Positions 1,258-38,276 are shown, counted from the stretch's first letter. The stretch is DNA of 64,000 bases from Candidatus Daviesbacteria bacterium RIFCSPLOWO2_01_FULL_39_23 (GCA_001776935.1 MFDN01000005.1:2505-66504); one strand, 5' to 3'. Notes: generated by a model not told the origin, from the sequence alone. Made by a program: numbers and translations.

Positions 1258-1359
1258 ATTTTTGCTATTAGCTTTTAGCTGTTAGCTATTTGCTGCTAAA
1301 AGCGAACAGCCTGCCCGCAATGCTACGCATAGCGTCGCAGGCGGGCCAATAGCGAATAG

Positions 1360-6298: not shown

Positions 6299-7308
6299 AG
6301 ACCTCCGGCAGGACAATTACAGTTTCTGCCCCGGGAAAAATACACCTGCTTGGCGAACATTCTGTAGTATATGGGAAGCCTGCTTTGCTTACGGCTATAA
6401 ATCTCAGGACCAATGTCATCCTGACGGCAAAACCCGAAGGATCTCTCGCGAATGCAAGCTCCTCAGATGAACTGAGAGATTCTTCTCCGCCCACAGCTAC
6501 GCAGTTGCTGGCGGATCAGAATGACAAAATAAAGGCAATAATTGAACCTATCGTTAAAAAATATCTGAAAATAAAACAAATCCCGCCCTATAAATTGGAA
6601 ATTTCCTCAGAATTTCCTTTAGGAGCAGGGCTTGGCTCTTCTGCTGCCATATCTTCGGCATACATCGGCGCGCTCTTAACTTTTCTTAAAATTAAATGGG
6701 ACTTACACCTTATCAATAAACTTTCCTTTGAGGCTGAAAAAGCTTTTCATGGAAATCCTTCGGGCGCAGATAATGCCGCAGTAGTGTTTGGGGGCTTAAT
6801 CTGGTTTAGAAAAGAAACTACTGATTTAAAAATAATCCAACCGATTAACTCCCCTGTCCCTGCCAATATAGCTGGAAATTTTATACTGATTAACACCGGA
6901 AAACCAAAAGAAACTACCAAAGAAATGGTGGGATTAGTAAAATTAAGAGTCAAGAGTCAAGAGTCAAGAGTCAAGAAAATATTTGATCATCAGGAACAAT
7001 TAGTTAAAGAGCTTTTACTGACCATTCAATGCGGGAATGAAAAGGAATTAATCAAAATTATCAGGGCAGGAGAGAAAAACTTGGAAAAGATGGGTGTAGT
7101 TTCTTGGTATGTTCAATCTATTATCAGAAAAATAGAAAAAGCCGGAGGTGCTGCAAAAGTGTGCGGAGGAGGAGGAAAAACCAAAGCAACAGGTGTACTT
7201 TTGGCTTATCATCCGGAAAAATCAGTACTGGAAAAAATTGCAAAATCATATGATCTACCTTATTATACGGTTGTCTTGGGAGCCGAAGGCCTGCGAAAGG
7301 AAATATAA
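6295..7308 (+). CDS. mvk: Mevalonate kinase (GHMP kinase)
   Basis: N-terminal SAPGKIHLLGEHSVVYG and PLGAGLGSSAA GHMP motifs. Carries an in-frame MITE-like insertion (6414-6526) encoding ...SSPPTATQLLADQND..., and an (agagtca)x4 repeat. Confidence 0.8.
   Translation: MKTSGRTITVSAPGKIHLLGEHSVVYGKPALLTAINLRTNVILTAKPEGSLANASSSDELRDSSPPTATQLLADQNDKIKAIIEPIVKKYLKIKQIPPYKLEISSEFPLGAGLGSSAAISSAYIGALLTFLKIKWDLHLINKLSFEAEKAFHGNPSGADNAAVVFGGLIWFRKETTDLKIIQPINSPVPANIAGNFILINTGKPKETTKEMVGLVKLRVKSQESRVKKIFDHQEQLVKELLLTIQCGNEKELIKIIRAGEKNLEKMGVVSWYVQSIIRKIEKAGGAAKVCGGGGKTKATGVLLAYHPEKSVLEKIAKSYDLPYYTVVLGAEGLRKEI
6414..6526. mobile_element. MITE-like repeat (tgtcatYctga...tcaggatgaca family) inserted in-frame in mvk
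   Basis: Terminal motifs tgtcatcctgacg ... tcagaatgaca. Internal gccagcaactgcgtagctgtgggcggagaag is shared with the copies at 17271-17370 and 17685-17812. Confidence 0.7.
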
Positions 7309-7356: not shown

Positions 7357-8358
7357 ATGAAAAGAGAAATAACAATATCAGCCCCCGGAAAATTAATGTT
7401 ACTTGGTGAACATGCTGTTGTTTATAACAGGCCCTGTATTGTTACAGCAGTCGGACAAAGAATGAGAGCTACAGTTGAGCTAACAGAGAAATCAACTTTC
7501 CAGCTTAATGCCCCGGATGTACAAATTGCAAATTATCAAAAGCCAATGGATCAATTAGGAATTGGCGATCTTCCCAAAGGAGCTAAATTTGTAGAAATTG
7601 CAGTGGTGAATTTCTTAAGGTCACTCCTTGAGTACTCAAGGAGTGACCTTGTAAAACCGGGAGTCAAGGTTTCTACGACCTCAGAATTTTCTTCCCAATT
7701 CGGTTTTGGCTCTTCCTCCGCCTCTACTGTTTGCGTAATTAAAGCCTTATCAGAAATTACAGAAGCAAATCTTAATAACAAAGAGATCTTTGATCTCGCG
7801 TACAAGACAGTGCTTGATATACAGGGCAAAGGTTCGGGATTTGATGCAGCAGCAGCCACCTTTGGAGGCACACTTTATTTTGTAACCGGAGGAAAAACAA
7901 TTGAACCTTTAAACATTGACTCCCTTCCTTTAATAGTTGGTTACAGCGGCATTAAAGCAGATACTGTCACCTTAATAAATCAGGTAAAAGAAAAAGCCGG
8001 GGGAAACCCCCAAGCTGTAGAAGATATTTATGACAATATTGGCAAGCTGGTAGAACAAGCCAAACTCGCTCTTTTGGGTAAAGATTGGCAAAGCTTAGGT
8101 GAGCTTATGAATGAAAACCAAAAACTACTAACCAAACTTGGAGTAAGCATAAACAAGCTTGATGATATGATTGCTGCCGCCCTTAAAGCAGGGGCATATG
8201 GGGCAAAGCTGTCCGGCGCCGGCGGCGGAGACTGTATGATAGCTTTAGCGCCGGAGGATAAGGTGCAAGCCGTCAAAGATGGAATAACCTCTGTCGGCGG
8301 CCAGATAATTGAGGTAGAAACGAATGCAGAAGGAGCTAGAATAGAGACGAGGGACTAG
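7357..8358 (+). CDS. GHMP kinase, probable phosphomevalonate kinase
   Basis: ISAPGKLMLLGEHAVVY and GFGSSSA motifs. Lies between mvk and mvd. Contains a perfect 34-bp palindrome in-frame (7617-7650). Confidence 0.65.
   Translation: MKREITISAPGKLMLLGEHAVVYNRPCIVTAVGQRMRATVELTEKSTFQLNAPDVQIANYQKPMDQLGIGDLPKGAKFVEIAVVNFLRSLLEYSRSDLVKPGVKVSTTSEFSSQFGFGSSSASTVCVIKALSEITEANLNNKEIFDLAYKTVLDIQGKGSGFDAAAATFGGTLYFVTGGKTIEPLNIDSLPLIVGYSGIKADTVTLINQVKEKAGGNPQAVEDIYDNIGKLVEQAKLALLGKDWQSLGELMNENQKLLTKLGVSINKLDDMIAAALKAGAYGAKLSGAGGGDCMIALAPEDKVQAVKDGITSVGGQIIEVETNAEGARIETRD
7617..7650. repeat. Perfect 34-bp palindrome within a coding region
   Basis: aaggtcactccttgagtactcaaggagtgacctt equals its own reverse complement. 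Encodes LRSLLEYSRSDLV in-frame, and the same peptide appears in the antisense ORF. Confidence 0.9.
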
Positions 8359-11984: not shown

Positions 11985-12059
11985 AACAAAAAAAATAAAA
12001 CACAAGCGAGTAAGTCTCTACCGTACGAGCGATTTTTTGTAGTGTGACAAGCGACACTT
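11985..12059. other. Conserved intergenic motif (copy 1 of 2)
   Basis: About 60 nt, acgagYaagtctctRccgtRcgagYgRttttttg...gacaag..cact. The second copy lies at 54440-54505 in the equivalent position, directly 3' of a minus-strand gene stop. Confidence 0.6.
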
Positions 12060-13610: not shown

Positions 13611-14228
13611 TCAATTTAGTAATTGTATCACTTCCTCATCTTCTACAGGCTCAAATTGATAATAAAATTGGCCGACTGATTGGAAATATTCCGGTACTTC
13701 CAACACTATACACTCGCTTGCCTCATTTTGTACCTTTTCCAAAGCCTCTGTACTGGCAACAGGCAAAGCCAAGATCACCTTTGCCTCATGTCTTTTTAGG
13801 AACTTTAAAGCAGCCAAAACTGTTGCGCCGGTAGCCATACCATCATCTACTAAGATGACTGTTTTAGTGTCTATATCAAGAAATTCTTTACCTTGACGAT
13901 AAAGCTCTTCCCGTCTTTTAATCTCCTTTATTTCGTCATCAATTTTCAATTTTAAATTTTCAATTTTCAATTTAAATTGCTTTAGCAAGTCCTGATCCCA
14001 GACTGCTTCTCCCTCAGGGTCAATTGCCCCTAAAGCCAATTCCGGCTGGTCCGGTGCGCCGATTTTTCTGGTAATTAAAACATCCAAAGGTAAATTTGAT
14101 TCTTTGGCAATTTCATAAGCCACCACCACCCCGCCTCTTGGTATTCCTAAAACCAAATCGGCTCGAAAGTCTTTCAATCTGTTAGCTAATAATTTCCCTG
14201 CAGACTGCCTATCTTTGAAAAGCTTCAT
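13611..14228 (-). CDS. Predicted phosphoribosyltransferase
   Basis: 205 aa with VILVDDGMATGAT PRTase motif (COG1926-like). In-frame (aattttc)n heptamer insertion encoding KLKIENLKLKID. Confidence 0.65.
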   Translation of the reverse strand: MKLFKDRQSAGKLLANRLKDFRADLVLGIPRGGVVVAYEIAKESNLPLDVLITRKIGAPDQPELALGAIDPEGEAVWDQDLLKQFKLKIENLKLKIDDEIKEIKRREELYRQGKEFLDIDTKTVILVDDGMATGATVLAALKFLKRHEAKVILALPVASTEALEKVQNEASECIVLEVPEYFQSVGQFYYQFEPVEDEEVIQLLN

Positions 14229-14347: not shown

Positions 14348-15661
14348 CTAATCAAACAGCCCCAACTGCGGCACTCCTTCTGCTTCTTTAACCGACCCTT
14401 CTCCGTGGTTCCAGATCTTAACTACTCCATACACCCCGTCATACCCCGGATCAATCACCACCTCCCCTTTCCTTACTTTTTCCACCCCCTCTGCCACCCT
14501 GGAATCCGATACTTTTACAATTTCTGCTGTATCAACTTTGGTTAAAATCTTTATTTCCGATCCTAAAACACCAGTTAACTTTTTATATTCATTTAAGACT
14601 TTTTGGGTTGTTGGAGCAGTCCCAAAAGCTTCTGCAATCACTTGCAAAAGCGGCACTAACATTCTATATCCAGCTCTATTTGGAAAAGCTTGAGTTTTAA
14701 TTAACCCTTTGTCATTTGAAATTTGTAATTTGTCATTTCCTCGCGAAGCGAGACTTTCCACCCTTTCCATCACCCCAACAGTTAATCCCCTGCCGCAAAC
14801 AGGGCACTTGGTACCTTTTGCTTTAGTATCTTTTGGTGAGTATTTTACATTGCAATTTCTGTGCCCTGTATAATGGTATTTGCCTTCCTCAGGATGAAAT
14901 TCTATAGTACCGGCAATCTTTTGCTCTTTAATGGCTTCAAATAACCCCAAATACCCTGTTTGCACTTCTCCTCCAATTACTGTTGCTTCTCTGCCTAAAT
15001 TCGGCAAAGAATGTGCATCAGAACAGGATATTATTGACCTTTGATCCAACTCAGAAATTCTCCAGTTCATGGCCGGATCAGAAGAAAGCCCGGTTTCTAC
15101 GCCGTATATATATTCTGTTAAATCCTCAAAGCAGTCCTCCAGGCTGTCATATCCTGACTGGGAACCAAACACCCCAAACCAGGGAGTCCAAATGTGAGCC
15201 GGAATAAAAATAGCTTTTTGGTCTGTCTCAAGACACATCCTTAAAAGCTCTTTGGAAGGGATACCTACAATCGGACGTCCGTCAGAGGATAAATTGGCGT
15301 GTTTAGCAAGCAAAGCTTTTTGCAATTTTTCTGCTGACTCAAATGAGGGCAAAATTATGACATTATGAATCCGGCACCCTGCGCCTTTATGGGAATAAAT
15401 AGAAGCCACTTCCACTGTTAGGACAAACCTGACTTCATTTCCAGCCAGAGGCTGGTCGTCCTTTGGACGAAAGAATCCTGAGCCGTCTTCTTTTAACTGG
15501 CTTTTTAATTCTGCAAGCCAAAGAGGATGCAGAAAATCTCCTGTCCCCAAAACATCAATCCCCTTAAGTTTTGCCCACATGGCTAAATTAGGAACATTTA
15601 ATTGGGGTGAGCAAGCCCGGGAGAATCTGGAGTGAATATGCAAATCTGCAATATACGCCAT
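14348..15661 (-). CDS. PHP-domain nuclease, endonuclease Q-like (TIGR00375 family)
   Basis: N-terminal IADLHIHSRFSRA PHP motif. CPVCGR zinc-finger-like motif. The 437 aa length matches EndoQ. Small in-frame heptamer insertion (NDKLQISNDKG). Confidence 0.55.
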   Translation of the reverse strand: MAYIADLHIHSRFSRACSPQLNVPNLAMWAKLKGIDVLGTGDFLHPLWLAELKSQLKEDGSGFFRPKDDQPLAGNEVRFVLTVEVASIYSHKGAGCRIHNVIILPSFESAEKLQKALLAKHANLSSDGRPIVGIPSKELLRMCLETDQKAIFIPAHIWTPWFGVFGSQSGYDSLEDCFEDLTEYIYGVETGLSSDPAMNWRISELDQRSIISCSDAHSLPNLGREATVIGGEVQTGYLGLFEAIKEQKIAGTIEFHPEEGKYHYTGHRNCNVKYSPKDTKAKGTKCPVCGRGLTVGVMERVESLASRGNDKLQISNDKGLIKTQAFPNRAGYRMLVPLLQVIAEAFGTAPTTQKVLNEYKKLTGVLGSEIKILTKVDTAEIVKVSDSRVAEGVEKVRKGEVVIDPGYDGVYGVVKIWNHGEGSVKEAEGVPQLGLFD

Positions 15662-15834: not shown

Positions 15835-17673
15835 CTACTTCTTGTATTGCTGCTTATACATCTCTATTAACTCTTTCACAGTTGTTGCATCCTCAGCTTT
15901 TTTGTCCGCTTCCCTAAATTGAACAAGTCTTGGAAATCTCAAAGCATAGCCGGGTTCTGTCTCTGTTTTTCCTGCAGTATGCACCGGCGAACGGGTTATT
16001 TCATCAGCCAATACCTCTATAACAAGTCTTGGCTCCACCCAAACACTGGGAATGATTAAAGAATTCACCCTGGCCGGCTTACTTTTTACTTTTAACTTTT
16101 GACTTTTTACTTCAATACCCCTCCACTCCTCATCAGAGAGTCCTGTGCCGATTTTAGAAACTGTCACAAATTCGTCTTTTTTATCATCATAAACTCCCAC
16201 CAAAAGCGACCCTGCCCCAAATCCCGATCTTTTGCCTTTACCAAAAATATATCCCAAAATTACACAATCTATAGTATCTTTTAATTCCCCTGAAGAATGC
16301 CTTTTTAGTTTAACCCAGTTAAAATTCCTGGCTCCTGCTTCATATTTTGAGTCAGGTCTTTTAACCACCAATCCCTCAAGCCCCAAAGATATTGCCTCAT
16401 CCAAAAGATCCTGCAATCTTTGCGCTTCACTCACCATCTCCCCTTCTTCCACTACTAAAGTGTCTCCATCTGCCACTACAGCTTTTAGCTCTTTTAATCT
16501 TTCAGTAAGCGGTAAATCAATTAAAGATATCCCATCTTTATATAAGATATCAAAACAAAAAGCCCTCAGAGGAATCTTTTTTGTCATTTCTGCGATTCCA
16601 TACTTTCTGCGTCTTTGTGTAGTCTCCTGAAAAGGCAAAAACTCATCCGAAGCAGGGTTATAGCCTATGGCTTCACAATCCAAGATGGCTGATTTTGCTT
16701 TAATTTGTTTTATTGCCCCTTCGGCAATTTCCGGAAACATCGGGGTAGTTTCTTCCAGGTTTCTCGAAAACAATCTTACTGTCTGATGACTGACAGCTGA
16801 CGACTGACGTCTATCTATGTGTATTTGTACCCTAAAACCATCCAATTTTCTTTGGGCATTTACTTCTCCCAGCTTTTCAATTACTGTCTTGCCGGAAGGT
16901 AATCTTTCAGCAAGCTGCGACCGAATCGGCCTGCCTACTTGTATTTCCAGCTTTTCTACAGCTTCCAATCCGCCCTGCCATAAAGTTTCTCCAATTAAGC
17001 CTAAATCAGATACCCTGTTATAGCCTCCCTCTAAAAGTTTACGCTTTGACCTGTCCCCCAGCTTTAATTTGGCAAAAGCATCCAAAATAGTCGGGTCTCC
17101 GATCCCTAAACGGGAAACTCCCAAAGGAATCCTGACTAAATGCTTTGCAGACACCGCATCCATTTGTTTTAATAGTCCTACCAAAAGTTGTTGTTTTTTC
17201 TCTACAGTTCCCTCCCCTGTTGTTTTGGCAATCTGAGTTAGAATATGAAACACCTGACTTACGTTTAATTTGTCATTCCGATCCGCCAGCAACTGCGTAG
17301 CTGTGGGCGGAGAAGAATCTCTAGATTTACTTTTTGAATCTTGAGATCCTTCGCTACGCTCAGGATGACACTTTATATCACTAAGTTGCTGGACTACTAA
17401 TCCCAAATCCCCTACTTTTCCATATTCTTTTAAAACTTCTTCCCTCCCGATGCCGTAGGCTTTGGCAATACTTGCAGCCACTGTTTTTTCTGCCATCCCC
17501 ATTTCCAAAGGTTCATAAAACGGAGCAACTCTGCCTTGAATTAAATAGGAAACTTTGCCAATTTCTTCTGTTTTAATTTCTCTAAACAACTCGGTTAAAA
17601 TATCAATCAATAAAAGCCTTGAGGAAGTTGCTTCTAGTTTTTCAAAATATTCTGCTAGTTTAGAAAATAACAT
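15835..17673 (-). CDS. ATP-dependent DNA ligase (archaeal/eukaryotic type)
   Basis: MLFSKLAEYFEKLEATSSR N-terminus, KLDGFR adenylation motif, and EGLVVK and OB-domain motifs. The track start at 17739 is a GTG inside a MITE, so the ATG at 17673 is preferred. Two in-frame repeat insertions. Confidence 0.85.
   Translation of the reverse strand: MLFSKLAEYFEKLEATSSRLLLIDILTELFREIKTEEIGKVSYLIQGRVAPFYEPLEMGMAEKTVAASIAKAYGIGREEVLKEYGKVGDLGLVVQQLSDIKCHPERSEGSQDSKSKSRDSSPPTATQLLADRNDKLNVSQVFHILTQIAKTTGEGTVEKKQQLLVGLLKQMDAVSAKHLVRIPLGVSRLGIGDPTILDAFAKLKLGDRSKRKLLEGGYNRVSDLGLIGETLWQGGLEAVEKLEIQVGRPIRSQLAERLPSGKTVIEKLGEVNAQRKLDGFRVQIHIDRRQSSAVSHQTVRLFSRNLEETTPMFPEIAEGAIKQIKAKSAILDCEAIGYNPASDEFLPFQETTQRRRKYGIAEMTKKIPLRAFCFDILYKDGISLIDLPLTERLKELKAVVADGDTLVVEEGEMVSEAQRLQDLLDEAISLGLEGLVVKRPDSKYEAGARNFNWVKLKRHSSGELKDTIDCVILGYIFGKGKRSGFGAGSLLVGVYDDKKDEFVTVSKIGTGLSDEEWRGIEVKSQKLKVKSKPARVNSLIIPSVWVEPRLVIEVLADEITRSPVHTAGKTETEPGYALRFPRLVQFREADKKAEDATTVKELIEMYKQQYKK
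17271..17370. mobile_element. MITE-like repeat inserted in-frame in the DNA ligase gene
   Basis: tgtcattccgatccgccagcaactgcgtagctgtgggcggagaagaatctctagat...gagatccttcgctacgctcaggatgaca. Encodes ...SRDSSPPTATQLLADRNDK... Confidence 0.75.
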
Positions 17674-17684
17674 AAAAACCTCTC

Positions 17685-17812
17685 TGTCATTCTGATCCGC
17701 CAGCAACTGCGTAGCTGTGGGCGGAGAAGAACCTCCCACGAATGTGGGTATTAGGTATCCAGAATAAATCTGGAGATCCTTCGTCCCGATTAAATCAGGA
17801 CTCAGGATGACA
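17685..17812. mobile_element. MITE-like repeat immediately upstream of the ligase start codon
   Basis: Same family (tgtcattctgatccgccagcaactgcgtagctgtgggcggagaaga ... ctcaggatgaca). Its end lies 11 nt from the ATG, next to a GAGAGG Shine-Dalgarno-like sequence. Confidence 0.7.
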
Positions 17813-21152: not shown

Positions 21153-24100
21153 CTAGTTTCCGACATACTCATCCCAACTTTTAATTTGTAGATCTTCTAC
21201 TTTTTTGCTAGCCAGGCTGGTTATTAAAAGCTCTGCTGCCTGCAGGTTAGTTATCAAAGGAATACCCAAATCCACACAATTCCTTCTTAAAATAAATCCG
21301 TCAGTTTCGCCTTTTTCCACCCCTCCCTCAGATATATTTATCACAAGATCAATCCCCTCGTTTAGAAGACTTAGCACAGAAGGTTCTCTTTTTTCTGCAA
21401 TTTTATAGATTCTGGTATTTTCAATGCCATGACTTTTTAGAAACTCTGAAGTATGGTGGGTGGCATATATTTTTAAACCTAAATTAATAAGCTGTTTTGC
21501 AGAAAGCAGCAAATCAAGTTTATTTTTATCCCCTCCCAAAGACAGCAATACTCCTTTTTTGGGTATTTTAAACCCAACAGCCAAAATGGCTTTAAGATAA
21601 GCCTCCTGCAGGTCATCCCCAAAACAAGCCACCTCCCCTGTTGAGGACATTTCCACCCGGAGTCTCGGATCCGCTCCTTTAATCCGGGAAAAAGAAAACT
21701 GCGGAGCTTTAACTCCCACATAATCTAAATCTATGGTCTTAAATCCATTGGTAAGTTTTTCTCCCATCATAACTTTTGTGGCCAATTCCACAAAGTTATA
21801 TCCTGTTACTTTGGAGACAAAAGGGAAAGACCTGGAAGCCCGGAGGTTTAATTCAATCACCTGTATTTTATTGTCTTTTGCCAAAAATTGAATATTGAAA
21901 GGGCCATTGATATTTAAAGCCTGAATAATCTTTTTGGTGGCCTCTTTTACCTTCCTGACAGTCTCAAGATAAAGCCTTTGAGGCGGCAAAACAATGGTGG
22001 CATCACCTGAGTGTACGCCGGCATTTTCCACATGTTCTGAGATGGCATAAATCAAAAGTTCCCCGCTTTGCCCTACTCCGTCAACTTCAATTTCTTTCGC
22101 CCCTTCTACAAACTTGGAAATTACCACCGGATGTTCGGGAGAAATATCCGAGGCGCTTTTTAAGTGCTTGGTTAGCTCAATAGAAGAATATGCCACATTC
22201 ATGGCAGAACCGGATAACACATAAGACGGCCTGACTAAAACCGGGTAACCGATTTTCTTGGCAAATGTTAAAGCCTCATCTACTCCTTTTAAGCTCTGCC
22301 ATCCCGGCTGTTCTATTCCTAGTGTGTCTAAAAGCTTAGAAAACTTATTACGGTCTTCTGCCCGGTCAATATTTTCAGGGGAAGTTCCCAGTATTTTATA
22401 ACCGGCCTTAAAACAAGCGATTGCCAAATTGTTGGGTACCTGTCCCCCAAAACTTAAAACAAGGTTGGCATTTTCTTCAATATCATAAATGTCACTAACT
22501 CGCTCAAAGGTCAGCTGTTCAAAATACAATTTATCCGCGCTGTCAAAATCTGTAGAAACTGTTTCCGGATTACAATTTATAATAATTGTTTCTAACCCTT
22601 TTTCCCTTAATGTTTTGGCTGCTGTTACACAGCACCAATCAAATTCCACAGAAGAACCAATCCTGTAAGGGCCGGAGCCAAGGACAATTGCTTTTTCGCT
22701 TTTCGCTATTAGCTTTTCGCTGTTAGCTTCTGATTCTTCTCCATGATATGTCAGATATAAATAATTTGTTTTAGCCGGGAATTCTCCTGCTAAAGTATCA
22801 ATATGTTTTACAACCGGTACTATGCCATGTTTCTTTCTGAATTCTCTAACTTTTTCTTGGGTGGTTTTAAATGCTTTAGCCAGTACTTTATCTGAAAAAC
22901 CTAATCTTTTTGCATCAAGAACGCTTTTCGCTGTTAACCCGCCTGCGACGCTATGCGTAGCATTGCGGGCAGGCTGTTGGCTTTTAGCTGCTAATGGCGA
23001 ATGGCCAATAGCTAATAGCTTTTTCTCAAACTCCACCATCTCTTTTATCTGATACAAAAACCATGGATCAATCCCTGTGGCCTGATAAATATCTTCTACT
23101 GATTCACCTTTACTAAGCCTTTTGGCAATGGCAAAAAGCCGCTCTGTGGTGGGCAAAAGCTGTGTATCATCTGTACCGTTTTCTAAAAGCCCATCCTGCC
23201 CTGTTTCAAGCATCCTGATGGCTTTTTGCAACACTTCCGGAAAAGATCTGCCTATTGCCATCACCTCTCCCACGCTTTTCATCTCCGAACCGATCGCTTC
23301 TTTTGCTCCCGCAAACTTTTGCAAATCCCACCTTGGAAGCTTAATCACAATATAATCCAAAGCCGGCTCAAAAAAGGCTGAAGTCGATAAAGTAACTCTA
23401 TTTTTAAGCTGCGGCAGATTGTAACCCAAGGCAATTTTGGCAGCAATATAAGCCAAAGGATAACCTGTGGCTTTAGAGGCTAAAGCTGAAGAACGCGACA
23501 ACCTGGCATTAACCTCTATCACCCGGTAATCATTATTCTCCGGATTTAGGGCAAATTGGATATTGCACTCCCCTACAATCCCCAAATACTCAATCACTTG
23601 TAGAGATAACTTGCGTAAAAAATGATACTGGTAATTATTTAAAGTTTGCGAAGGAGCTACCACAATACTCTCACCGGTATGAATCCCCAAAGGATCCATA
23701 TTTTCCATATTACAAACAGTGATTTTATTACCCTTATTATCCCGGACCACTTCATACTCCACCTCTTTCCAATGTTTTAAATATTCTTCAATAGCAATCT
23801 GCGGAGCCTGACTCAAAGCACTGGTGACCATTTTAATAAATTCCTCCTTACTTTCAACTACTCCTGAACCTAAACCTCCTAAAGAAAAACCGGATCGTAT
23901 AAGAAGCGGATACTCTAACTTCTCAGCAATTTCCAGAGCCTGATTCAAACTTTTGGCAAAACCGCCGACGGGAACTTTGACGCCAATTTTTGCAAGTTCC
24001 CCGGCAAAAAGCTCCCGGTCTTCCGTAATTTCTATACTTTTTACAGGAGTACCTAAAACCTTAACGCCATACTTTTTAAAAATCCCGTTCTTTTCCAAAG

Positions 24101-24383
24101 CCAAACCGCAATTTAAGGCAGTCTGCCCGCCAAAACTTAAAAGTATCGCATCGGGTTTTTCCTTTTTTATCACTTTTTCAACAAATAATGGAGTTACCGG
24201 TAAAAAATAAATCTTACGCGCAAGCTCTTTGGAGGTTTGAATAGTGGCAATATTAGGGTTTATTAAAACCGATTCAATGCCTTCTTCTTTTAGGGCTTTT
24301 AAAGCTTGCGAGCCTGAATAATCAAACTCGCCTGCTTCCCCGATTTTTAATGCTCCTGAACCTAAAACTAGTACTTTTTTCAT
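21153..24383 (-). CDS. carB: Carbamoyl-phosphate synthase large subunit
   Basis: 1076 aa with two ATP-grasp halves and an MGS-like C-terminal domain. In-frame repeat insertions at about 22680-22735 and 22920-23035 (encoding ...GHSPLAAKSQQPARNATHSVAGGLTA...). Confidence 0.95.
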   Translation of the reverse strand: MKKVLVLGSGALKIGEAGEFDYSGSQALKALKEEGIESVLINPNIATIQTSKELARKIYFLPVTPLFVEKVIKKEKPDAILLSFGGQTALNCGLALEKNGIFKKYGVKVLGTPVKSIEITEDRELFAGELAKIGVKVPVGGFAKSLNQALEIAEKLEYPLLIRSGFSLGGLGSGVVESKEEFIKMVTSALSQAPQIAIEEYLKHWKEVEYEVVRDNKGNKITVCNMENMDPLGIHTGESIVVAPSQTLNNYQYHFLRKLSLQVIEYLGIVGECNIQFALNPENNDYRVIEVNARLSRSSALASKATGYPLAYIAAKIALGYNLPQLKNRVTLSTSAFFEPALDYIVIKLPRWDLQKFAGAKEAIGSEMKSVGEVMAIGRSFPEVLQKAIRMLETGQDGLLENGTDDTQLLPTTERLFAIAKRLSKGESVEDIYQATGIDPWFLYQIKEMVEFEKKLLAIGHSPLAAKSQQPARNATHSVAGGLTAKSVLDAKRLGFSDKVLAKAFKTTQEKVREFRKKHGIVPVVKHIDTLAGEFPAKTNYLYLTYHGEESEANSEKLIAKSEKAIVLGSGPYRIGSSVEFDWCCVTAAKTLREKGLETIIINCNPETVSTDFDSADKLYFEQLTFERVSDIYDIEENANLVLSFGGQVPNNLAIACFKAGYKILGTSPENIDRAEDRNKFSKLLDTLGIEQPGWQSLKGVDEALTFAKKIGYPVLVRPSYVLSGSAMNVAYSSIELTKHLKSASDISPEHPVVISKFVEGAKEIEVDGVGQSGELLIYAISEHVENAGVHSGDATIVLPPQRLYLETVRKVKEATKKIIQALNINGPFNIQFLAKDNKIQVIELNLRASRSFPFVSKVTGYNFVELATKVMMGEKLTNGFKTIDLDYVGVKAPQFSFSRIKGADPRLRVEMSSTGEVACFGDDLQEAYLKAILAVGFKIPKKGVLLSLGGDKNKLDLLLSAKQLINLGLKIYATHHTSEFLKSHGIENTRIYKIAEKREPSVLSLLNEGIDLVINISEGGVEKGETDGFILRRNCVDLGIPLITNLQAAELLITSLASKKVEDLQIKSWDEYVGN

Positions 24384-24394: not shown

Positions 24395-24477
24395 TGTCAT
24401 TCTGAGCGTAGCGAAGAATCTCTTGACTTGTTCAAGGTTCCAAACTAGATCCTTCGGCTAATCGCCTCAGGATGACA
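24395..24477. mobile_element. MITE-like repeat filling the carA-carB intergenic region
   Basis: tgtcattctgagcgtagcgaagaatctc...gatccttcggctaatcgcctcaggatgaca. Abuts the carA stop codon and ends 11 nt from the carB start. Confidence 0.75.
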
Positions 24478-25572
24478 CTAAAGAAAGCTAATAAATTCAT
24501 CAAACAAGTATCCACCATCAACCGGCCCCGGATTTGCTTCCGGATGAAACTGCACAGCCATAAATGGTTTTTTCTTATGCCTGATCCCCTCATTCGTGCC
24601 GTCATTTAAATTCACAAACCATTCCTGCCAACCTGAACCCATAGACTTGATATCTACTGCAAAACCATGATTTTGAGAAGTAATAATAGCCTTCTTTGTA
24701 ATTTGATCTTGTATGGGTTGATTTTGGCCCCGATGGCCAAATTTCAGTTTGTATGTATTTCCACCTGCTGCTAAAGATAAAATCTGACTGCCTAAACAGA
24801 TTCCAAAAGTAGGGATATTTTTGTTTAGAATCTGCTCTACATTTTCTATGGTTTGTTTTGCCTGTTTTGGGTCTCCGGGACCATTGGAAATAAGCACCCC
24901 GTCAAAATCAATTTTTGCATCCAGTGGATTAAAATCCCAAGGCACCCGGGTAACTTTCACCCCTCTTTTCACCAAACTCCTGATGATATTTTCCTTCGCC
25001 CCGCAATCTATTAAAACAATGTTTTTCTTCCCTGATCCATAAACTTCTACCTCTTTACAGCTTACATAAGGCAGGATATTTTCTTTGTTGGGATCATAAG
25101 TAAAGTCGCCAGTCGCTAGAGTCGAGAGTCTAGACTTTGTGTTACTTGACTCTTGACTCTTGACTCTTGACTCTACCTCTATCCGGCCCAGCATCACTCC
25201 ATGTTCCCGGAGCTTTATAGTCAAAGCCCGGGTGTCAATGCCTTGCAAAGCCGGGATTTTTTCCTCTCTTAACCATTCTCCTAATGTTTTTTCACTTTCA
25301 AAATGCGACGGATGATCAATATAATTTTGCACAATCAATCCTTTTACCTGTATCTTTTTCGATTCCCAAAAATCCTTTTTTGGAACCCCGTAATTGCCTT
25401 GCAAAGGATAGGTTAAAACCAAAATCTGACCAAAATAAGAAGGATCTGTTAAAGCTTCAGGATAACCCACCATACTGGTATTAAATACCACTTCACCAGA
25501 CGTGCTGCCTTCAAATCCAAAACTTTTTCCTAAAAAAACTGTCCCATCGGACAGTGTCAGTTTACCATCCAT
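24478..25572 (-). CDS. carA: Carbamoyl-phosphate synthase small subunit (glutamine amidotransferase)
   Basis: 364 aa. GICLGSQ amidotransferase Cys motif. In-frame (gagtcaa)n insertion encoding VESRVKSQESSNTKSRLSTLA. Confidence 0.9.
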   Translation of the reverse strand: MDGKLTLSDGTVFLGKSFGFEGSTSGEVVFNTSMVGYPEALTDPSYFGQILVLTYPLQGNYGVPKKDFWESKKIQVKGLIVQNYIDHPSHFESEKTLGEWLREEKIPALQGIDTRALTIKLREHGVMLGRIEVESRVKSQESSNTKSRLSTLATGDFTYDPNKENILPYVSCKEVEVYGSGKKNIVLIDCGAKENIIRSLVKRGVKVTRVPWDFNPLDAKIDFDGVLISNGPGDPKQAKQTIENVEQILNKNIPTFGICLGSQILSLAAGGNTYKLKFGHRGQNQPIQDQITKKAIITSQNHGFAVDIKSMGSGWQEWFVNLNDGTNEGIRHKKKPFMAVQFHPEANPGPVDGGYLFDEFISFL

Positions 25573-28443: not shown

Positions 28444-29526
28444 TTATATCACCTTTCCATATGGGCCGAAGATGTTTTGGCCATCGTATACCAGCTGCTC
28501 CCTTAGCACTACTTTTTTCACCCTGCCGGTAACTTCCATGCCGTTAAAGGGAGTCCAGCCGCATTTGGTAAATAAGCGTTCAGCGTTTAGCGTATAGCGT
28601 ATAGCTGGATCAACTTCTACAAAGGTATTTTCCTGCTCAGGTAAAGAAAAGATTCTTTTTGGATTTGTGTGTGTCAATTCAATTAATCTGTCTAAACTCA
28701 ACCTGCCATCATTTACAGCTGTTAAAAGCAGCGGTAATGTAGTTTCAAGTCCCGGCACCCCAAACATTGGTTTTTCTCCCATCTTTTCCTCTCTAGTGTG
28801 AGGCGCATGATCAGAAGCTACTATATCTATAGTTCCATCAATGACTGCCTGCCACAGCACTTCCTGATCCTCTTTGCTTTCAAGAGGCGGTTTCATCATG
28901 CCATATGATCCCAGCCTTTCAACATCAGTATCTTTTAAAAACAAATGATGGCAAGCCACTTCACAGCTTATTTTCATACCCTCTGCTTTGGCGGCTTTGA
29001 TCAATTCAATTTCTCTTTTTAAGGACACATGACAAACATGCAGTTTAAGATCTCCAGATCGCAAGCTTTGCTTATTTCCAAACCTTTTAGCCAAACTTAT
29101 GGCTTTTTCTAAAGTCTCCCCTTCTGCATGCACCATTAATACTTTTTCTTTTGGCCAGGAAGAAAAAACTTTCTCTAAAACCTGATCATCGCTCATCAAT
29201 AAATCCCCGGTGGTTTGATTCATATAAACTTTCAGTCCAAAAACTTGCTCTGCCACCTGAGGAAAGTATTGGACACTGCTTTCACTGGCCCCAAAATGAA
29301 ATCCAATATCACAATACACCCTACCCTCAGCCAGTTTCTTTTTCGATGATAAAGCTTCCGGGTTAATTGTGGCAATTGGATTATTGGGCATATCCAAAAC
29401 TTGGGTAAAACCGCCGGCAATAGCTGCTTTGGTGCCTGTTTGAAAATCCTCTTTTTGGGTGGCTCCCGGTTCCCGTAGGTGTACATGAGTATCAATAAGG
29501 CCGGGCAAAGTAATTATCTTTGACAT
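28444..29526 (-). CDS. pyrC: Dihydroorotase
   Basis: PGLIDTHVHLREPG metal-binding N-terminus. Amidohydrolase fold. In-frame agcgtat heptamer insertion near the C-terminus. Confidence 0.8.
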   Translation of the reverse strand: MSKIITLPGLIDTHVHLREPGATQKEDFQTGTKAAIAGGFTQVLDMPNNPIATINPEALSSKKKLAEGRVYCDIGFHFGASESSVQYFPQVAEQVFGLKVYMNQTTGDLLMSDDQVLEKVFSSWPKEKVLMVHAEGETLEKAISLAKRFGNKQSLRSGDLKLHVCHVSLKREIELIKAAKAEGMKISCEVACHHLFLKDTDVERLGSYGMMKPPLESKEDQEVLWQAVIDGTIDIVASDHAPHTREEKMGEKPMFGVPGLETTLPLLLTAVNDGRLSLDRLIELTHTNPKRIFSLPEQENTFVEVDPAIRYTLNAERLFTKCGWTPFNGMEVTGRVKKVVLREQLVYDGQNIFGPYGKVI

Positions 29527-32376: not shown

Positions 32377-33321
32377 TCACTTTTGACAATGGAGACAAAA
32401 GTATGTGCCGCGGCCTGCTAAGGCAATTTTTTTAATTTCTGTTTTGCACATTTTGCAAGGATGTTTGTCCCGCCAATACACATAGGCGTAATCTAAAAAA
32501 TAGCCTTTGTGGCCTTCCGGATCTACAAAATGCGCCCGGGTGGACCCGCCGCGTTTTATCCCCTCTTTTAAAGCTTTAATAATGCCCTCAAAAAGTGATT
32601 TAAACTGTTTATCAGTTAAATCCCCGACTTTTGTTCGCGGATCAATTTTAGCATTAAAACAAGCTTCATTTGAATAAATATTCCCTATTCCGGAAACAGC
32701 ACTTTGATCCATAATCGCCACCTTAACCGGCATAGATTTATGCCTTAATAAATTCTGTTTCAAAACCTCCCAGGTAAATCCTTTTTCCAACGGCTCAGGT
32801 CCTAAATTTTTCAGAGAATTGTCAATTGCCAATTGTCCATTGTCAATTACCTTCACCCATCCAAAACGACGCTGGTCATTAAAATAAAGATGGGAGTTAT
32901 TCGAAAACGTAAATATAACTCTAGTGTGAGGATTCGGCATAGTTCCCAGCATATCTTCTGTGGGGTGCCCACCTATAAAACGCTTTTCGCTACTGGCTAT
33001 TCGCTTTTCGCTTGGAATATAAATAAGTTGGCCGGACATTTTTAGATGGAATAGAAGAGTTATTTGCTGTTCGCTATTGGCTGTTAGCTTTTTGCTTTTG
33101 GCTATTAGCGAACGGCGAATAGCTAATAGCTTTTCCCCTACGAGGTCTATACCGAGCAGTTTAGCTCTTCTCCATATTTTGAGTACATTTTTACCCTGGG
33201 CTAAATTAGGGTTCCCGATAAAGGATTTAGGAGAAAGAATTTGGATTTTTTGGATTTTCAACCCGATGATTTTTTTGGTCAACCCCAAACGGATAACTTC
33301 CACTTCCGGTAATTCAGGCAT
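32377..33321 (-). CDS. mutM: Formamidopyrimidine-DNA glycosylase (Fpg/Nei family)
   Basis: MPELPEVE N-terminus, H2TH region, and C-terminal C4 zinc finger (CKMCKTEIKK...CLHCQK). Several in-frame heptamer-repeat insertions (PSEKRIASSEKRF etc.) lengthen it to 314 aa. Confidence 0.8.
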   Translation of the reverse strand: MPELPEVEVIRLGLTKKIIGLKIQKIQILSPKSFIGNPNLAQGKNVLKIWRRAKLLGIDLVGEKLLAIRRSLIAKSKKLTANSEQQITLLFHLKMSGQLIYIPSEKRIASSEKRFIGGHPTEDMLGTMPNPHTRVIFTFSNNSHLYFNDQRRFGWVKVIDNGQLAIDNSLKNLGPEPLEKGFTWEVLKQNLLRHKSMPVKVAIMDQSAVSGIGNIYSNEACFNAKIDPRTKVGDLTDKQFKSLFEGIIKALKEGIKRGGSTRAHFVDPEGHKGYFLDYAYVYWRDKHPCKMCKTEIKKIALAGRGTYFCLHCQK

Positions 33322-37274: not shown

Positions 37275-38276
37275 CTAGACAGATTTTGCAGAGCGTGCAG
37301 AAGAAACTTTTCTAAGTCTTTCCAAAAATACTTTTTGGGCCTCTAAAACATTTTCTTCTTTTCCTGCCCATACCTTTAATGCTTCATCCTGCAAAGCCCG
37401 GCCATAGGAAAAGCTTAATTGCCATCCGCCGGCTGGCGGACTAATCTTATTAATAGCAGCCAGATTTACCGTGGCTTCATCAGGGGTTTGGCCGCCGGAG
37501 AGGAAAACTATTCCCGGCACCTCTTTTGGTACCGCTTCCAAAAATGTTTCTACTGTGGCTTTGGCAATCTCTTGCGGATTAGCTTTCACTGCAAAATCTT
37601 TACCGGAAATCACCATATTAGGTTTTAAGAGCATTCCTTCTAACGCAACTCTATGTGCTTCTAATTTCTCAAAAACTATTTTCAAAGTTTTGGTTGTGAC
37701 TTCCCGACATTTTTCAAGATCGTGTTCTCCGTCCATCAGAACTTCCGGCTCCACAATCGGCACAATATCCTGTTCCTGACACAAAGCAGCATATTGGGCT
37801 AAGCTTTCAGCGTTGGCTTCGATACAAATATCTGTTGGAATATTTTCCCCAATTGTAATGACTGCCCTCCATTTGGCAAACTTTGCTCCCAATTCTTTGT
37901 ATTCTTTAAGGCGTTCTTCTAACCCTTCCATGCCTTTCGTAATCTTTTCTCCCGGACTATTTGGCAAGTCTTCTGTTCCCTGATCAACTTTTATCCCCGG
38001 CAAGATTCCTCTGTCTTCCAGATACTTAGGAATTGTCACACCATCAATAGATTGCCTGATTGTTTCATCATATAAAATCACCCCTGATAAAAATTCTTCT
38101 ATTCCCGGAGTGGTAAAAAGCATTTTTCTGTAAGCCAGATTAGTTTCAGGCACAGACTGTAAATTTATTTTATCAAACCGTTTTTGAATGGTTTTAGAAG
38201 ATTCATCAGCTGCCAGGATTCCTTTTCCCGGCGCTACCAAGGTTTGTGCTGTTTGTTTTAATAAAATAATATCCAT
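37275..38276 (-). CDS. Fructose-bisphosphate aldolase class I
   Basis: GKGILAADES motif and conserved Schiff-base Lys region. 333 aa. Confidence 0.8.
   Translation of the reverse strand: MDIILLKQTAQTLVAPGKGILAADESSKTIQKRFDKINLQSVPETNLAYRKMLFTTPGIEEFLSGVILYDETIRQSIDGVTIPKYLEDRGILPGIKVDQGTEDLPNSPGEKITKGMEGLEERLKEYKELGAKFAKWRAVITIGENIPTDICIEANAESLAQYAALCQEQDIVPIVEPEVLMDGEHDLEKCREVTTKTLKIVFEKLEAHRVALEGMLLKPNMVISGKDFAVKANPQEIAKATVETFLEAVPKEVPGIVFLSGGQTPDEATVNLAAINKISPPAGGWQLSFSYGRALQDEALKVWAGKEENVLEAQKVFLERLRKVSSARSAKSV

What the first reader, a model, noticed from the sequence alone, without database searches (positions are those of the whole stretch)
22680..23035. Essential genes riddled with in-frame repeat insertions (RPE-like behaviour)
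Heptamer or MITE units lie in-frame in hmgR, mvk, the PMK-like kinase, the prenyl synthase, PRTase, EndoQ-like gene, ligase, carB (two sites), carA, pyrC, fpg (at least three sites), GT4 (two sites) and polA (two sites). The inserted peptides are low-complexity (AKS, ANS, EKR, SQESRVK, GHSPLAAKS). They fall where orthologs have loops: the carB linker before the second ATP-grasp, and the polA loop before QVHDEL. The identical peptide GHSPLAAKS appears in both carB and the GT4 gene.
Basis: partly seen in the sequence, partly recalled or inferred. Interest (0 to 1): 0.75.

Follow-up and report, generated by a model that had tools for sequence, protein, structure and literature searches.

The report
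Translated DNA repeats inside housekeeping genes
In this tiny-genome groundwater bacterium (Candidatus Daviesbacteria), short repeated DNA sits in-frame inside about fifteen core enzymes and DNA-repair genes, mostly as runs of 7-base units or small hairpin elements that appear to be translated as floppy surface loops, much like the palindromic elements of Rickettsia but with heptamer arrays as a new twist.

Summary
The window comes from a Candidatus Daviesbacteria (CPR/Microgenomates) genome. It holds 21 strict period-7 tandem arrays against 0.22 expected, and 13 of them lie inside conserved genes. It also holds several families of small palindromic elements with copies both between genes and in-frame inside genes. 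At 22680-23035, carB carries two repeat sites. One is a heptamer array in the linker before the second ATP-grasp half. The other is an AGC-type heptamer array with a nested 36-nt hairpin; an identical hairpin copy lies between genes at 1310-1345. Two relatives with 81-82% identical CarB have that array but not the hairpin, and most of 118 Daviesbacteria CarB proteins have neither. AlphaFold gives pLDDT below 50 at exactly these two sites. The same holds for hmgR, mvk, the second GHMP kinase, polyprenyl synthase, EndoQ, DNA ligase, carA, pyrC, fpg, GT4 and polA. Several arrays are not net insertions: they occupy loops at unchanged length, with different 7-nt units in different relatives. Three "in-frame" cases are ORF-calling artefacts. 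No repeat-length variation was seen within the species. I rate this a new variant of a known kind.

The parts
21153..24383 (-). carB (carbamoyl-phosphate synthase large subunit), the host gene of the flagged region
   Evidence: Translation. Identical to Ca. Daviesbacteria protein P0361. E=0 to CPS1 and E. coli CarB structures.
22693..22729 (-). carB site 2: heptamer array (units GCGAAAA/GCTAATA) encoding ANSEKLIAKSEK in the linker before the second ATP-grasp half
   Evidence: TRF period 7. L001 has an AGAGTCN array here and L002 has non-repeat sequence. 5-aa gap in CPS1. pLDDT below 50 at residues 554-560.
22923..23019 (-). carB site 1: composite of an AGC-type heptamer array and a nested hairpin, encoding LLAIGHSPLAAKSQQPARNATHSVAGGLTAKS
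   Evidence: 87% identical to 1264-1360. 19-aa gap in CPS1. Absent from most of 118 homologues. pLDDT below 50 at residues 462-480.
22938..22973 (-). 36-nt hairpin element CCTGCCCGCAATGCTACGCATAGCGTCGCAGGCGGG nested in the array; net +27 nt (9 aa)
   Evidence: L001 and L002 carry the array without it. An identical copy lies at 1310-1345. Fold.
1264..1360 (+). Intergenic twin of the carB site-1 composite (array plus identical hairpin at 1310-1345), between uppS and polyprenyl synthase
   Evidence: Its array units keep stop codons.
1990..2012 (-). Polyprenyl synthase: heptamer array (AGTCGTC type) encoding SSVISPQ in a variable loop
2451..2486 (+). hmgR: perfect (AGCGAAA)x4.4 array encoding LAKSEKRKAKSY in a hairpin loop
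   Evidence: Only +2 aa against the archaeal HMGR structure 6hr7. L004 has an AACTACR array and L003 a palindrome at the same site.
5416..5433 (+). Thiolase: 18-nt GC-rich palindrome GCCTGCCGGCCGGCAGGC encoding LPAGRQ
   Evidence: Present in the window and L003, absent in L004.
6475..6533 (+). mvk (GHMP kinase 1): 59-nt palindromic element, in-frame (…RDSSPPTATQLLADQND…)
   Evidence: 97-98% identical to 17264-17322 and 17685-17735. Absent in L004. Fold.
6941..6978 (+). mvk: perfect (AAGAGTC)x4.6 array encoding LRVKSQESRVKK
   Evidence: 30 nt are 100% identical to the carA array. Aligns without a gap to non-repeat sequence in L004.
7617..7650 (+). GHMP kinase 2 (PMK-like): perfect 34-nt palindrome; net 7-aa insert LEYSRSD
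   Evidence: Fold z=-6.6. Absent in L003 and L004.
13938..13976 (-). PRTase: heptamer array (AAATTGA type) encoding FKLKIENLKLKID
   Evidence: No length change against L002. The in-phase TGA is mutated to TTA.
14713..14738 (-). EndoQ homologue: heptamer array encoding NDKLQISN
   Evidence: Lies inside a 15-aa insertion relative to PfuEndoQ 5zb8.
15441..15455 (-). EndoQ homologue: 15-nt palindrome CCAGCCAGAGGCTGG within the 6-aa insert DQPLAG
16078..16112 (-). DNA ligase: heptamer array encoding VKSQKLKVKSK
   Evidence: No length change against L002. The in-phase TAA is mutated to TTA.
16783..16812 (-). DNA ligase: CTGACGA-type array, 8-aa insert RRQSSAVS
17264..17382 (-). DNA ligase: two adjacent palindromic elements in-frame (…KCHPERSEGSQDSKSKSRDSSPPTATQLLADRNDK…), about 27 aa more than the relative
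   Evidence: copies at 6475, 17685, 24395, 37214.
25102..25176 (-). carA: inter-domain linker made of (GAGTCAA)x4.3 plus GACTCTN units, encoding VESRVKSQESSNTKSRLSTLATGDF
   Evidence: 17-aa gap in CPS1. L001 and L002 carry arrays of other units here.
28573..28606 (-). pyrC: heptamer array (GCTATAC/GCTAAAC) encoding AIRYTLNAERL, length-neutral
   Evidence: Aligns without a gap to human CAD LEHEWTIPSHMPF and to non-repeat sequence in L001 and L002.
29047..29073 (-). pyrC: 9-aa insert KQSLRSGDL
   Evidence: Absent in L001, L002 and human CAD.
32817..32844 (-). fpg inter-domain linker: ACAATTG array encoding DNGQLAIDN, length-neutral
   Evidence: L001 has ACAGGTT units and L002 AAAATTG units, all three at the same length.
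32981..33013 (-). fpg: AGCGAAA-type array encoding SEKRIASSEK (+2 aa)
33061..33129 (-). fpg: 69-nt inverted AGC-type heptamer array, 23-aa insert LLAIRRSLIAKSKKLTANSEQQI
   Evidence: Absent in L001 and L002. Fold z=-3.3. The N-terminal domain is 38 aa longer than MutM 1l1t.
37425..37440 (-). Fructose-bisphosphate aldolase: palindrome TCCGCCGGCTGGCGGA, 3-aa insert
39394..39408 (-). GT4: palindrome TCCGCCTTGGGCGGA within the 5-aa insert AQGGP
39659..39698 (-). GT4 site b: AAAAGCT array encoding LKANSEKLKAKS
   Evidence: L006 has a CCAACTA array with a nested palindrome here.
39814..39854 (-). GT4 site a: AGC-type unit encoding LFAVGHSPLAAKS, 93% identical to the carB site-1 array
42411..42474 (-). 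polA loop before QVHDEL: AGC-type array encoding ELLAVSGSQLAANIQQPIAKS
   Evidence: 15-aa gap in Taq. Shared with L005 and L006. The loop runs 7-43 aa across homologues.
43569..43641 (-). polA exonuclease-polymerase linker: 73-nt element in-frame
   Evidence: 86% identical to intergenic 15694-15766. The linker is hypervariable in homologues.
44141..44166 (-). polA 5'-nuclease loop: 16-nt palindrome TCCGCCAGCTGGCGGA nested in an AAAATTG array, 8-aa insert
   Evidence: 9-aa gap in Taq.

Best explanation
The genome of this Candidatus Daviesbacteria lineage is colonised by two kinds of selfish or mutationally generated repeat DNA. The first kind is tandem arrays of 7-nt units that belong to a few dispersed unit families (AGC-type, AGTC-type, ACAATT-type). 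The second kind is small palindromic elements of 15-100 nt, which often nest inside the heptamer arrays.

Both kinds arise throughout the genome and are about four times denser between genes. Inside genes, purifying selection keeps only copies that meet three conditions: their net length is a multiple of three, they have no stop codon in the reading frame, and they lie in structurally permissive loops or inter-domain linkers. Those survivors are transcribed and translated as low-complexity, probably disordered peptides that the enzymes tolerate. This is the behaviour described for Rickettsia palindromic elements.

Once an array is established in a permissive loop it persists over long evolutionary times. 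Its units are kept alike or replaced, either by conversion between units within the array or by conversion from arrays elsewhere in the genome. As a result, close relatives carry different 7-nt units at the same site, often at the same length.

Shown here: the repeats, their dispersal, their absence from orthologues, their position in loops, and the removal of in-frame stops. Inferred: that they are translated, that they are roughly neutral, and how they are generated and homogenised.
For: 1. Excess of repeats. There are 21 period-7 arrays against 0.22 expected, and only period 7 is enriched. Relatives have 0.5-2.9 arrays per 10 kb.

2. Dispersal. The 36-nt hairpin is identical at 1310-1345 (intergenic) and 22938-22973 (carB). 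Element families have copies in mvk, in the ligase and upstream of the ligase; in the polA linker and between genes; and in the ligase and at two intergenic sites. The (AAGAGTC)n arrays in mvk and carA share 30 identical nucleotides.

3. Filled versus empty sites. L001 and L002 carry the carB array without the hairpin. There are 25 window-specific insert blocks relative to syntenic relatives of 65-84% identity.

4. Lineage-wide hypervariable hotspots. In about 120 homologues each of CarB, HMGR and PolA, the same few loops carry peptides that look repeat-derived, such as VESRVKSLESS, CHPERSEGS, VIPAKAGIQ and LPAGRQ.

5. Loop location. pLDDT is below 50 at both carB sites. Solved homologues show gaps at the carB, polA, carA, pyrC and EndoQ sites.

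6. Selection at the level of translation. If the coding arrays were perfect copies of their own consensus unit, 19 codons would be in-frame stops. All 19 are single-base variants instead, for example TGA to TTA and TAG to TCG. The perfect arrays use units that are stop-free in all three phases.

7. Nesting of palindromes in arrays, seen three times: carB site 1, polA loop 1, and GT4 in L006.

8. Concerted change. In the fpg linker, the window and L002 differ by the same C-to-A change in three successive units, which falls at different codon positions each time.

9. Real sequence, stable in the population. Identical proteins occur on 19-28 contigs from independent samples.
Against: There is no direct evidence of translation; proteomic data cannot be reached with these tools.

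Several arrays are length-neutral relative to relatives and even to distant solved homologues: pyrC, the fpg linker, hmgR, mvk, PRTase and one ligase site. Simple insertion followed by filtering does not predict this, so an extra process is needed, such as conversion or compensating deletion.

Loop lengths across homologues show no 7-aa steps, so slippage in three-unit steps is not the dominant mode.

No transposase or other mobilising enzyme, and no target-site duplication, was identified.

The excess of small GC-rich palindromes is only about two-fold (21 against 11.5).

The 36-nt hairpin was found exactly in only one species-representative genome and five metagenome contigs, so its copy number is unknown.
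Confidence: 0.78

Rival explanations
1. In-situ 'heptamerisation'. Many coding arrays are not insertions at all. They are written over pre-existing loop sequence by a templated process that works in a 7-nt register. This could be out-of-register template switching or gene conversion within the locus, or conversion from arrays elsewhere in the genome, possibly helped by an enzyme. The process leaves the length unchanged.
For: The pyrC array aligns without a gap to LEHEWTIPSHMPF of human CAD and to non-repeat sequence in both close relatives. It keeps the ancestral TATAC (Y-T) core, as if a local heptamer had been copied outwards.

The fpg linker has the same length in the window, L001, L002 and MutM, but three different units.

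The HMGR hairpin is only 2 aa longer than in archaeal HMGR, yet it holds three different repeats in three relatives.

The mvk, PRTase and ligase arrays are length-neutral relative to non-repeat relatives.

Perfect arrays persist although neutral sites between these genomes are saturated.
Against: Other repeat segments are clear net insertions: fpg +23 aa, ligase +27 and +8 aa, carA +13-17 aa, carB site 1 +19 aa, and polA.

Strong selection on loop length, combined with insertion and then deletion, would also give length-neutral survivors.

The EndoQ array looks length-neutral against L002 but lies in a 15-aa insertion relative to PfuEndoQ. Some 'neutral' cases are therefore simply older insertions.

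No candidate enzyme was found.
Confidence: 0.25
2. The arrays are contingency loci. Heptamer copy number changes often and switches or tunes these genes (phase variation), or diversifies loops under positive selection.
For: Perfect 4-5-unit arrays in hmgR, mvk and carA should be prone to slippage. The loops are hypervariable between species.
Against: All full-length members of the 90%-identity clusters of carB, hmgR and polA have identical lengths. They differ by 0-2 point substitutions, except for one polA variant with 13 substitutions. None of these differences lies in a repeat.

A change of one unit would shift the reading frame of single-copy core enzymes in a genome of about 1 Mb.

The proteins are cytosolic housekeeping enzymes with no obvious reason to diversify.
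Confidence: 0.04
3. The inserts are not part of the mature protein. They are removed from the mRNA, like an intron or by hairpin-directed processing, or from the protein, like an intein.
For: Many elements are strong hairpins. The lineage does carry true inteins, in FtsH here and in some PolA homologues.
Against: Every coding copy has a net length that is a multiple of three and is free of stops. Nineteen would-be stop codons have been mutated away. Excision would make that constraint unnecessary.

No intein or splicing motifs are present. No Rfam family matches; the only Rfam hit in the window is a tRNA.

The inserts are as short as 3-9 aa.
Confidence: 0.03
4. The feature is an artefact: mis-assembly or pseudogenes, or ordinary low-complexity linkers whose DNA periodicity is incidental.
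For: The genomes are assembled from metagenomes, and repeats are known assembly hazards.
Against: The same sequences were recovered on 19-28 contigs from independent samples and assemblers between 2012 and 2016. The ORFs are intact and conserved. The DNA periodicity is specific to period 7. Identical DNA copies exist between genes, which selection at the protein level cannot produce.
Confidence: 0.01

Closest known systems
Rickettsia palindromic elements (RPEs; Ogata et al. 2000 Science 290:347, as summarised in PMC10969869)
   Same: Both are dispersed repeat families in a reduced genome. Many copies are inserted in-frame in unrelated housekeeping genes. The copies sit at positions compatible with the protein fold, encode extra peptide segments, and also occur between genes.
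   Different: RPEs are elements of about 100-150 bp that encode a conserved peptide. Here the units are 7-nt tandem arrays and 15-97-nt palindromes. No sequence similarity was tested or expected, and the host phylum is different (CPR). Several arrays here replace loop sequence at constant length instead of adding to it. Unit sequences turn over between relatives.
Cyanobacterial STRR heptanucleotide tandem repeats (Mazel et al. 1990, from my own knowledge), and heptamer simple-sequence repeats in Nostoc, Xanthomonas and Beggiatoaceae (PMC4692102, PMC4679880)
   Same: Both show 7-nt units in short arrays of about 3-6 copies. Several unit families are dispersed over the genome, inverted array pairs occur, and many arrays lie directly upstream of start codons.
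   Different: Published heptamer arrays are reported as over-represented between genes and under-represented in coding regions. Here 13 of 21 strict arrays lie inside conserved coding sequences. The lineage is CPR, not cyanobacteria or proteobacteria.
Small dispersed repeats (SDRs) nested in heptameric repeats of Nostocales (Elhai et al. 2008 Genome Res 18:1484; reference seen, content from my own knowledge, paper not readable here)
   Same: In both, very small hairpin-forming elements of 20-40 nt occur as identical copies at unrelated loci and are nested inside tandem heptamer arrays. Three such nestings were seen here.
   Different: Homology to SDR families was not tested. Here the nested copies are also in-frame inside essential-type genes.
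REP/REPIN and MITE elements (PMC3116915, PMC10969869)
   Same: Both are short palindromic repeats present in multiple near-identical copies, some of them within genes.
   Different: No terminal inverted repeats with target-site duplication, no RAYT or transposase partner, and no REP doublet organisation were identified in the window.

Membership tests
RPE-like in-frame selfish repeats | Dispersed repeat family with copies both between genes and inside ORFs | tested here: met
   Self-BLAST families. Identical 36-nt hairpin in carB and between genes.
RPE-like in-frame selfish repeats | Copies in ORFs preserve the reading frame, and orthologues lack the segment | tested here: met
RPE-like in-frame selfish repeats | Inserts lie at surface loops compatible with the fold | tested here: met
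   carB AlphaFold model: pLDDT below 50 and coil at both sites. Gaps in solved homologues fall between conserved blocks. Shown structurally only for carB.
RPE-like in-frame selfish repeats | Element of about 100-150 bp homologous to RPE-1 to RPE-10, encoding a conserved peptide | tested here: not met
   Elements here are 7-nt arrays and 15-97-nt palindromes. This is an analogue, not a member.
RPE-like in-frame selfish repeats | Insert is transcribed and translated | not testable with these tools
   Only indirect support: multiple-of-three lengths and 19 in-frame stops removed.
STRR-type heptanucleotide tandem repeats | Tandem arrays of 7-nt units in significant excess | tested here: met
   21 arrays against 0.22 expected; other periods at background.
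STRR-type heptanucleotide tandem repeats | A few unit families recur at many loci | tested here: met
   AGC-type, AGTC-type and ACAATT-type units. 30-nt identity between the mvk and carA arrays.
STRR-type heptanucleotide tandem repeats | Essentially intergenic distribution | tested here: not met
   13 of 21 strict arrays lie in conserved coding sequences, although density is about 4 times higher between genes.
SDR-like nested hairpin elements | Small hairpin inserted within heptamer arrays, with identical copies elsewhere | tested here: met
SDR-like nested hairpin elements | Sequence homology to cyanobacterial SDR families | not tested
MITE | Terminal inverted repeats, target-site duplication, and a related autonomous IS | tested here: inconclusive
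   The elements are palindromic. No target-site duplication or transposase was found in the window.
Phase-variable contingency repeat | Copy-number polymorphism within the population | tested here: not met
   All full-length cluster members have the same length and no differences in the repeats. The sample is small, 3-7 variants per gene.

The most novel reading that the evidence does not exclude
Daviesbacteria, and perhaps CPR bacteria more widely, may have an active templated process that writes and re-homogenises 7-nt tandem arrays in place. It would overwrite loop-coding sequence at constant length, swap unit families between loci, and provide landing pads for tiny hairpin elements. This would be the same still-unexplained machinery that produces STRR arrays and SDR elements in heterocystous cyanobacteria. 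A possible link is the 23S-rRNA-IVP / Avd-like four-helix-bundle genes, which in this window are themselves bracketed by inverted heptamer arrays.
Probability: 0.15. Interest if true: 0.85.

Novelty: new variant of a known kind. Interest (0 to 1): 0.66.

Why it matters
Genomes of about 1 Mb are usually thought of as streamlined and poor in repeats. Here a CPR bacterium carries translated repeat DNA in roughly fifteen core enzymes within 64 kb, and the same loops are hotspots across at least 100 related genomes.

This extends the Rickettsia case of selfish DNA inside proteins to a second, unrelated reduced-genome lineage, and to a different class of repeat: 7-nt arrays, which cannot change by one unit without shifting the reading frame.

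There are two practical consequences. Orthologue alignments, protein-family profiles and gene calls in CPR genomes will be distorted by these segments; three ORF-start artefacts were seen here. The hotspot loops also amount to a natural map of where these enzymes tolerate insertions.

The origin of heptamer arrays has been unexplained since they were described in cyanobacteria. The arrays here are orthologous, length-neutral and differ in unit sequence between relatives. That gives a comparative system in which the generating mechanism could be inferred.

Tried and rejected
1. A related-loci scan of genome contigs with the hmgS protein found nothing usable, because the peptide seeds fell in poorly conserved stretches.

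2. I looked for 7-aa steps in loop lengths across about 120 homologues. This would be expected if arrays changed by three units at a time. No such pattern was seen.

3. I scanned for the 36-nt hairpin core (a 22-nt sub-pattern in species-representative genomes, a 32-nt sub-pattern in metagenomes). It gave 1 hit in a Paceibacterota MAG and 5 metagenome contigs, all intergenic and outside arrays. This was too few to estimate copy number or host range.

4. Rfam at gathering thresholds returned only a tRNA, so none of the elements is a described RNA family.

5. I counted small GC-rich palindromes genome-wide. The enrichment was only about two-fold, so I do not claim a large family beyond the three TCCGCC-N4-GGCGGA copies.

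6. Literature searches on Daviesbacteria, CPR or Microgenomates combined with repeats, MITEs or in-frame insertions found nothing relevant. Elhai et al. 2008 could not be opened.

7. Considered and rejected: phase variation, because there is no length polymorphism; RNA or protein excision, because of the frame and stop constraints; mis-assembly, because of recurrence on 19-28 contigs; and heptad (coiled-coil) selection at the protein level, because the periodicity is 7 nt rather than 21 nt and identical DNA occurs between genes.
Full report
**What the window is.**
Pfam annotation of about 50 ORFs gives a mevalonate operon, uppS and polyprenyl synthase. It also gives a pyrimidine block (carB, carA, pyrB, pyrC), an ATP-dependent DNA ligase, fpg, polA, an FtsH carrying an intein, DUF5667, HepT, PIN and two 23S-rRNA-IVP genes. 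The CarB, HMGR and PolA proteins are identical to proteins of Candidatus Daviesbacteria from the Rifle aquifer (GW2011, RIFCSP and ACD_38C records). These were recovered on 19-28 contigs. The next relatives are 75-82% identical and are all Daviesbacteria or Microgenomates.

Yes. TRF and my own period scan find dozens of heptamer arrays.
- With a strict detector there are 21 period-7 arrays. One hundred shuffles that preserve codons within genes and composition between genes give a mean of 0.22 and at most 2. Periods 4-6 and 8-12 are at background.
- After correcting three ORF starts, 13 arrays lie in conserved coding sequences and 8 lie between genes. Density is therefore about four times higher between genes, but the coding count is still far above expectation.
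- A self-BLAST defines palindromic element families with both coding and intergenic copies:
  - 6475-6533 (mvk), 17264-17322 (ligase) and 17685-17735 (just upstream of the ligase start);
  - 43569-43641 (polA linker) and 15694-15766 (intergenic);
  - 17343-17378 (ligase), 24395-24423 and 37214-37250 (both intergenic);
  - a perfect 34-nt palindrome in the second GHMP kinase.

**The flagged region.**
carB carries two repeat sites inside 22680-23035.
- Site 2 (22693-22729) is a GCGAAAA/GCTAATA array. It encodes ANSEKLIAKSEK directly before KAIVLGSGPY, the start of the second synthetase half.
- Site 1 (22923-23019) is an AGC-type heptamer array with a nested 36-nt hairpin. The whole 97 nt is 87% identical to intergenic 1264-1360. 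The hairpin itself is identical in both places.
- DNA of two syntenic relatives, L001 and L002, whose CarB is 82% and 81% identical, shows the array at site 1 without the hairpin. The window has a net 27 extra nucleotides.
- Most of 118 Daviesbacteria CarB proteins lack the site-1 array altogether. Three positions, after residues 456-483, 552-564 and 636, are hypervariable in length across the family. They contain peptides that appear to be translations of repeat elements, such as VESRVKSLESS, CHPERSEGS…SSLIARNDN and IPANAGIQ…ELDPRLCGDD.
- Human CPS1 shows a 19-aa gap at site 1 and a 5-aa gap at site 2.
- An AlphaFold model built with 65 homologues (pTM 0.82) gives pLDDT below 50 at 462-480 and 554-560. 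Both are coil, between helices 440-460 and 485-493 and between strands 540-545 and 564-568.

**The other genes.**
- fpg has a 23-aa insert that is an inverted AGC-type array. It also has a +2-aa array and a linker array.
- The ligase has about 27 aa from two palindromic elements, an 8-aa CTGACGA array and one further array.
- The carA domain linker is 13-17 aa longer than in relatives and in CPS1.
- pyrC has a 9-aa insert plus an array.
- mvk carries a palindromic element and a perfect (AAGAGTC)x4.6 array.
- The second GHMP kinase gains 7 aa from the 34-nt palindrome.
- polA has three sites: an 8-aa palindrome nested in an array in the 5'-nuclease domain, a 73-nt element in the inter-domain linker, and about 15-20 aa before QVHDEL.
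- GT4 has two array sites plus a small palindrome.
- The thiolase, aldolase, glpX and EndoQ genes carry small GC-rich palindromes (LPAGRQ, PPAGG, DQPLAG).
- In total, 25 blocks (171 of 10,665 aligned residues) are specific to the window relative to its closest relatives. The relatives carry inserts of their own elsewhere.
- GHSPLAAKS is shared by carB and GT4 because 41 nt of DNA are 93% identical.

**Evidence that the repeats are translated under selection.**
Seven coding arrays use units that are stop-free in all three phases on the sense strand. For the other ten, a perfect array would create 19 in-frame stop codons. All 19 positions carry a single-base variant instead, for example TGA to TTA in PRTase and EndoQ, TAA to TTA in the ligase, and TAG to TCG in carB, GT4 and polA. 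The intergenic twin of the carB element keeps its stops. Together with net lengths that are multiples of three, this argues against removal at the RNA or protein level. No described RNA family matches the elements.

*(a) Length-neutral arrays.* Several arrays are not net insertions.
- The pyrC array aligns without a gap to LEHEWTIPSHMPF of human CAD and to non-repeat sequence in both relatives.
- The fpg linker array has the same length as in MutM.
- The HMGR array is only 2 aa longer than the archaeal hairpin.
- The mvk, PRTase and one ligase array align without gaps to non-repeat relatives.
- The EndoQ array is length-neutral against L002 but lies in a 15-aa insertion relative to PfuEndoQ. 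Some such cases are therefore older insertions.

*(b) Different units at the same site.* At one site, relatives carry arrays of different units.
- fpg linker: ACAATTG in the window, ACAGGTT in L001, AAAATTG in L002.
- carA linker: GAGTCAA, TCAAAGA and AATTGAA.
- HMGR loop: AAAGCGA, AACTACR, or a palindrome.
- GT4 site b: AAAAGCT, or CCAACTA with a nested palindrome.
- In fpg, the window and L002 differ by the same C-to-A change in three successive units. The change hits different codon positions each time, which marks a concerted change at the DNA level.

*(c) Dispersed unit families.* The same unit families recur at unlinked loci. mvk and carA share 30 identical nucleotides. The arrays are therefore dispersed families and not independent products of local slippage.

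*(d) Nesting.* Palindromes nest inside arrays three times. From my own knowledge, this parallels the small dispersed repeats described in Nostocales.

*(e) Stability within the species.* The repeats do not vary within the species. Cluster members from many samples have identical lengths and no differences in the repeats. This argues against phase variation.

**Comparison with what is known.**
The behaviour matches Rickettsia palindromic elements, which are in-frame, located in loops, and also found between genes (PMC10969869). It does not meet RPE membership, because the elements differ in size and kind. The arrays match STRR-type heptamer repeats in unit length, array size and dispersal. Published heptamer arrays, however, are described as intergenic and depleted from coding regions (PMC4692102, PMC4679880). 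No report on CPR genomes was found in the searchable library, though that library is incomplete.

**Verdict.**
The finding is a real, lineage-wide phenomenon. The best explanation is that selfish or mutational repeat DNA is filtered by selection into permissive loops of housekeeping proteins and translated there. A second, unexplained layer remains: the length-neutral turnover of arrays. I rate it a new variant of a known kind, with interest about 0.66.

Noticed in passing
window 151-560 and 8335-8756: Both 23S_rRNA_IVP / bAvd-like four-helix-bundle genes (183-548 and 8374-8730) are bracketed by inverted heptamer arrays: AGCTTTCAG…TCGTCAG against CTGAAAGCT…CTGACGACT, and CTAGAGTCAAGAG against CTTGACTCTAGACTCTAG. 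The second gene sits inside the mevalonate operon between the second GHMP kinase and MVD. Relatives have a NUDIX gene (L003) or a PIN/RHH pair (L004) at that position. This suggests a mobile cassette or a stem-loop processing signal like that of 23S intervening sequences.
   Followed up: partly
window 4710-4739 and 8727-8756: A 30-nt sequence, TTGACTCTAGACTCTAGCGACTAGTCACTA, is 100% identical at two places. Each copy ends about 3 nt before the start codon of thiolase or MVD. Several other intergenic arrays also abut start codons, as reported for TAACTGA repeats in Beggiatoaceae.
   Followed up: no
window 3411-3552, 13448-13590 (partial copy 11962-11996): An element of about 144 nt (80% identical copies) sits at operon junctions. 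At the hmgR/hmgS junction it replaces the usual 4-nt gene overlap, supplies the last codons of hmgR (…SRESTKAI), and makes ORF callers extend hmgS by 36 false codons.
   Followed up: partly
window 17674-17739; 47718-47933; 3447-3554: ORF-start artefacts. Repeat elements upstream of the ligase, DUF5667 and hmgS are open in-frame, so mechanical ORF calls add 22, about 72 and 36 spurious N-terminal residues.
   Followed up: yes
window 50800-53928: FtsH carries an intein with a LAGLIDADG homing endonuclease (Pfam Intein_splicing and LAGLIDADG_3), giving 1042 aa against 614 aa in relative L005. Some Daviesbacteria PolA homologues (P0264, P0341) also carry inteins.
   Followed up: no
window 20078-20581 and 34375-34899: Two paralogous genes with a PaaX_M / Cas2-like domain share 188 nt at 80% identity. 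No CRISPR array or other cas genes were seen in the window.
   Followed up: no
window 43978-44082 (polA residues 151-185): A strain variant of PolA (P0241, 98% identical) has 11 of its 13 differences clustered in 35 residues of the 5'-nuclease domain. This looks like a recombination tract. The repeats themselves are unchanged.
   Followed up: no
L007 1150-1360; L008-L012: The 36-nt hairpin CCTGCCCGCAATGCTACGCATAGCGTCGC(A/G)GGCGGG also occurs between genes in a Paceibacterota MAG and in five metagenome contigs, outside any heptamer array. This suggests that the element family crosses CPR lineages.
   Followed up: partly
L003 7664-8527 and 18502-19518; L001 1252-2154: Relatives carry their own private in-frame inserts. 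Examples are SHLGGVKAHLIRAQREQRGV in polyprenyl synthase and PASPDERASRGG in MVD (both L003), and PLRPRSEAS in fpg (L001). The process is therefore ongoing in each lineage.
   Followed up: partly
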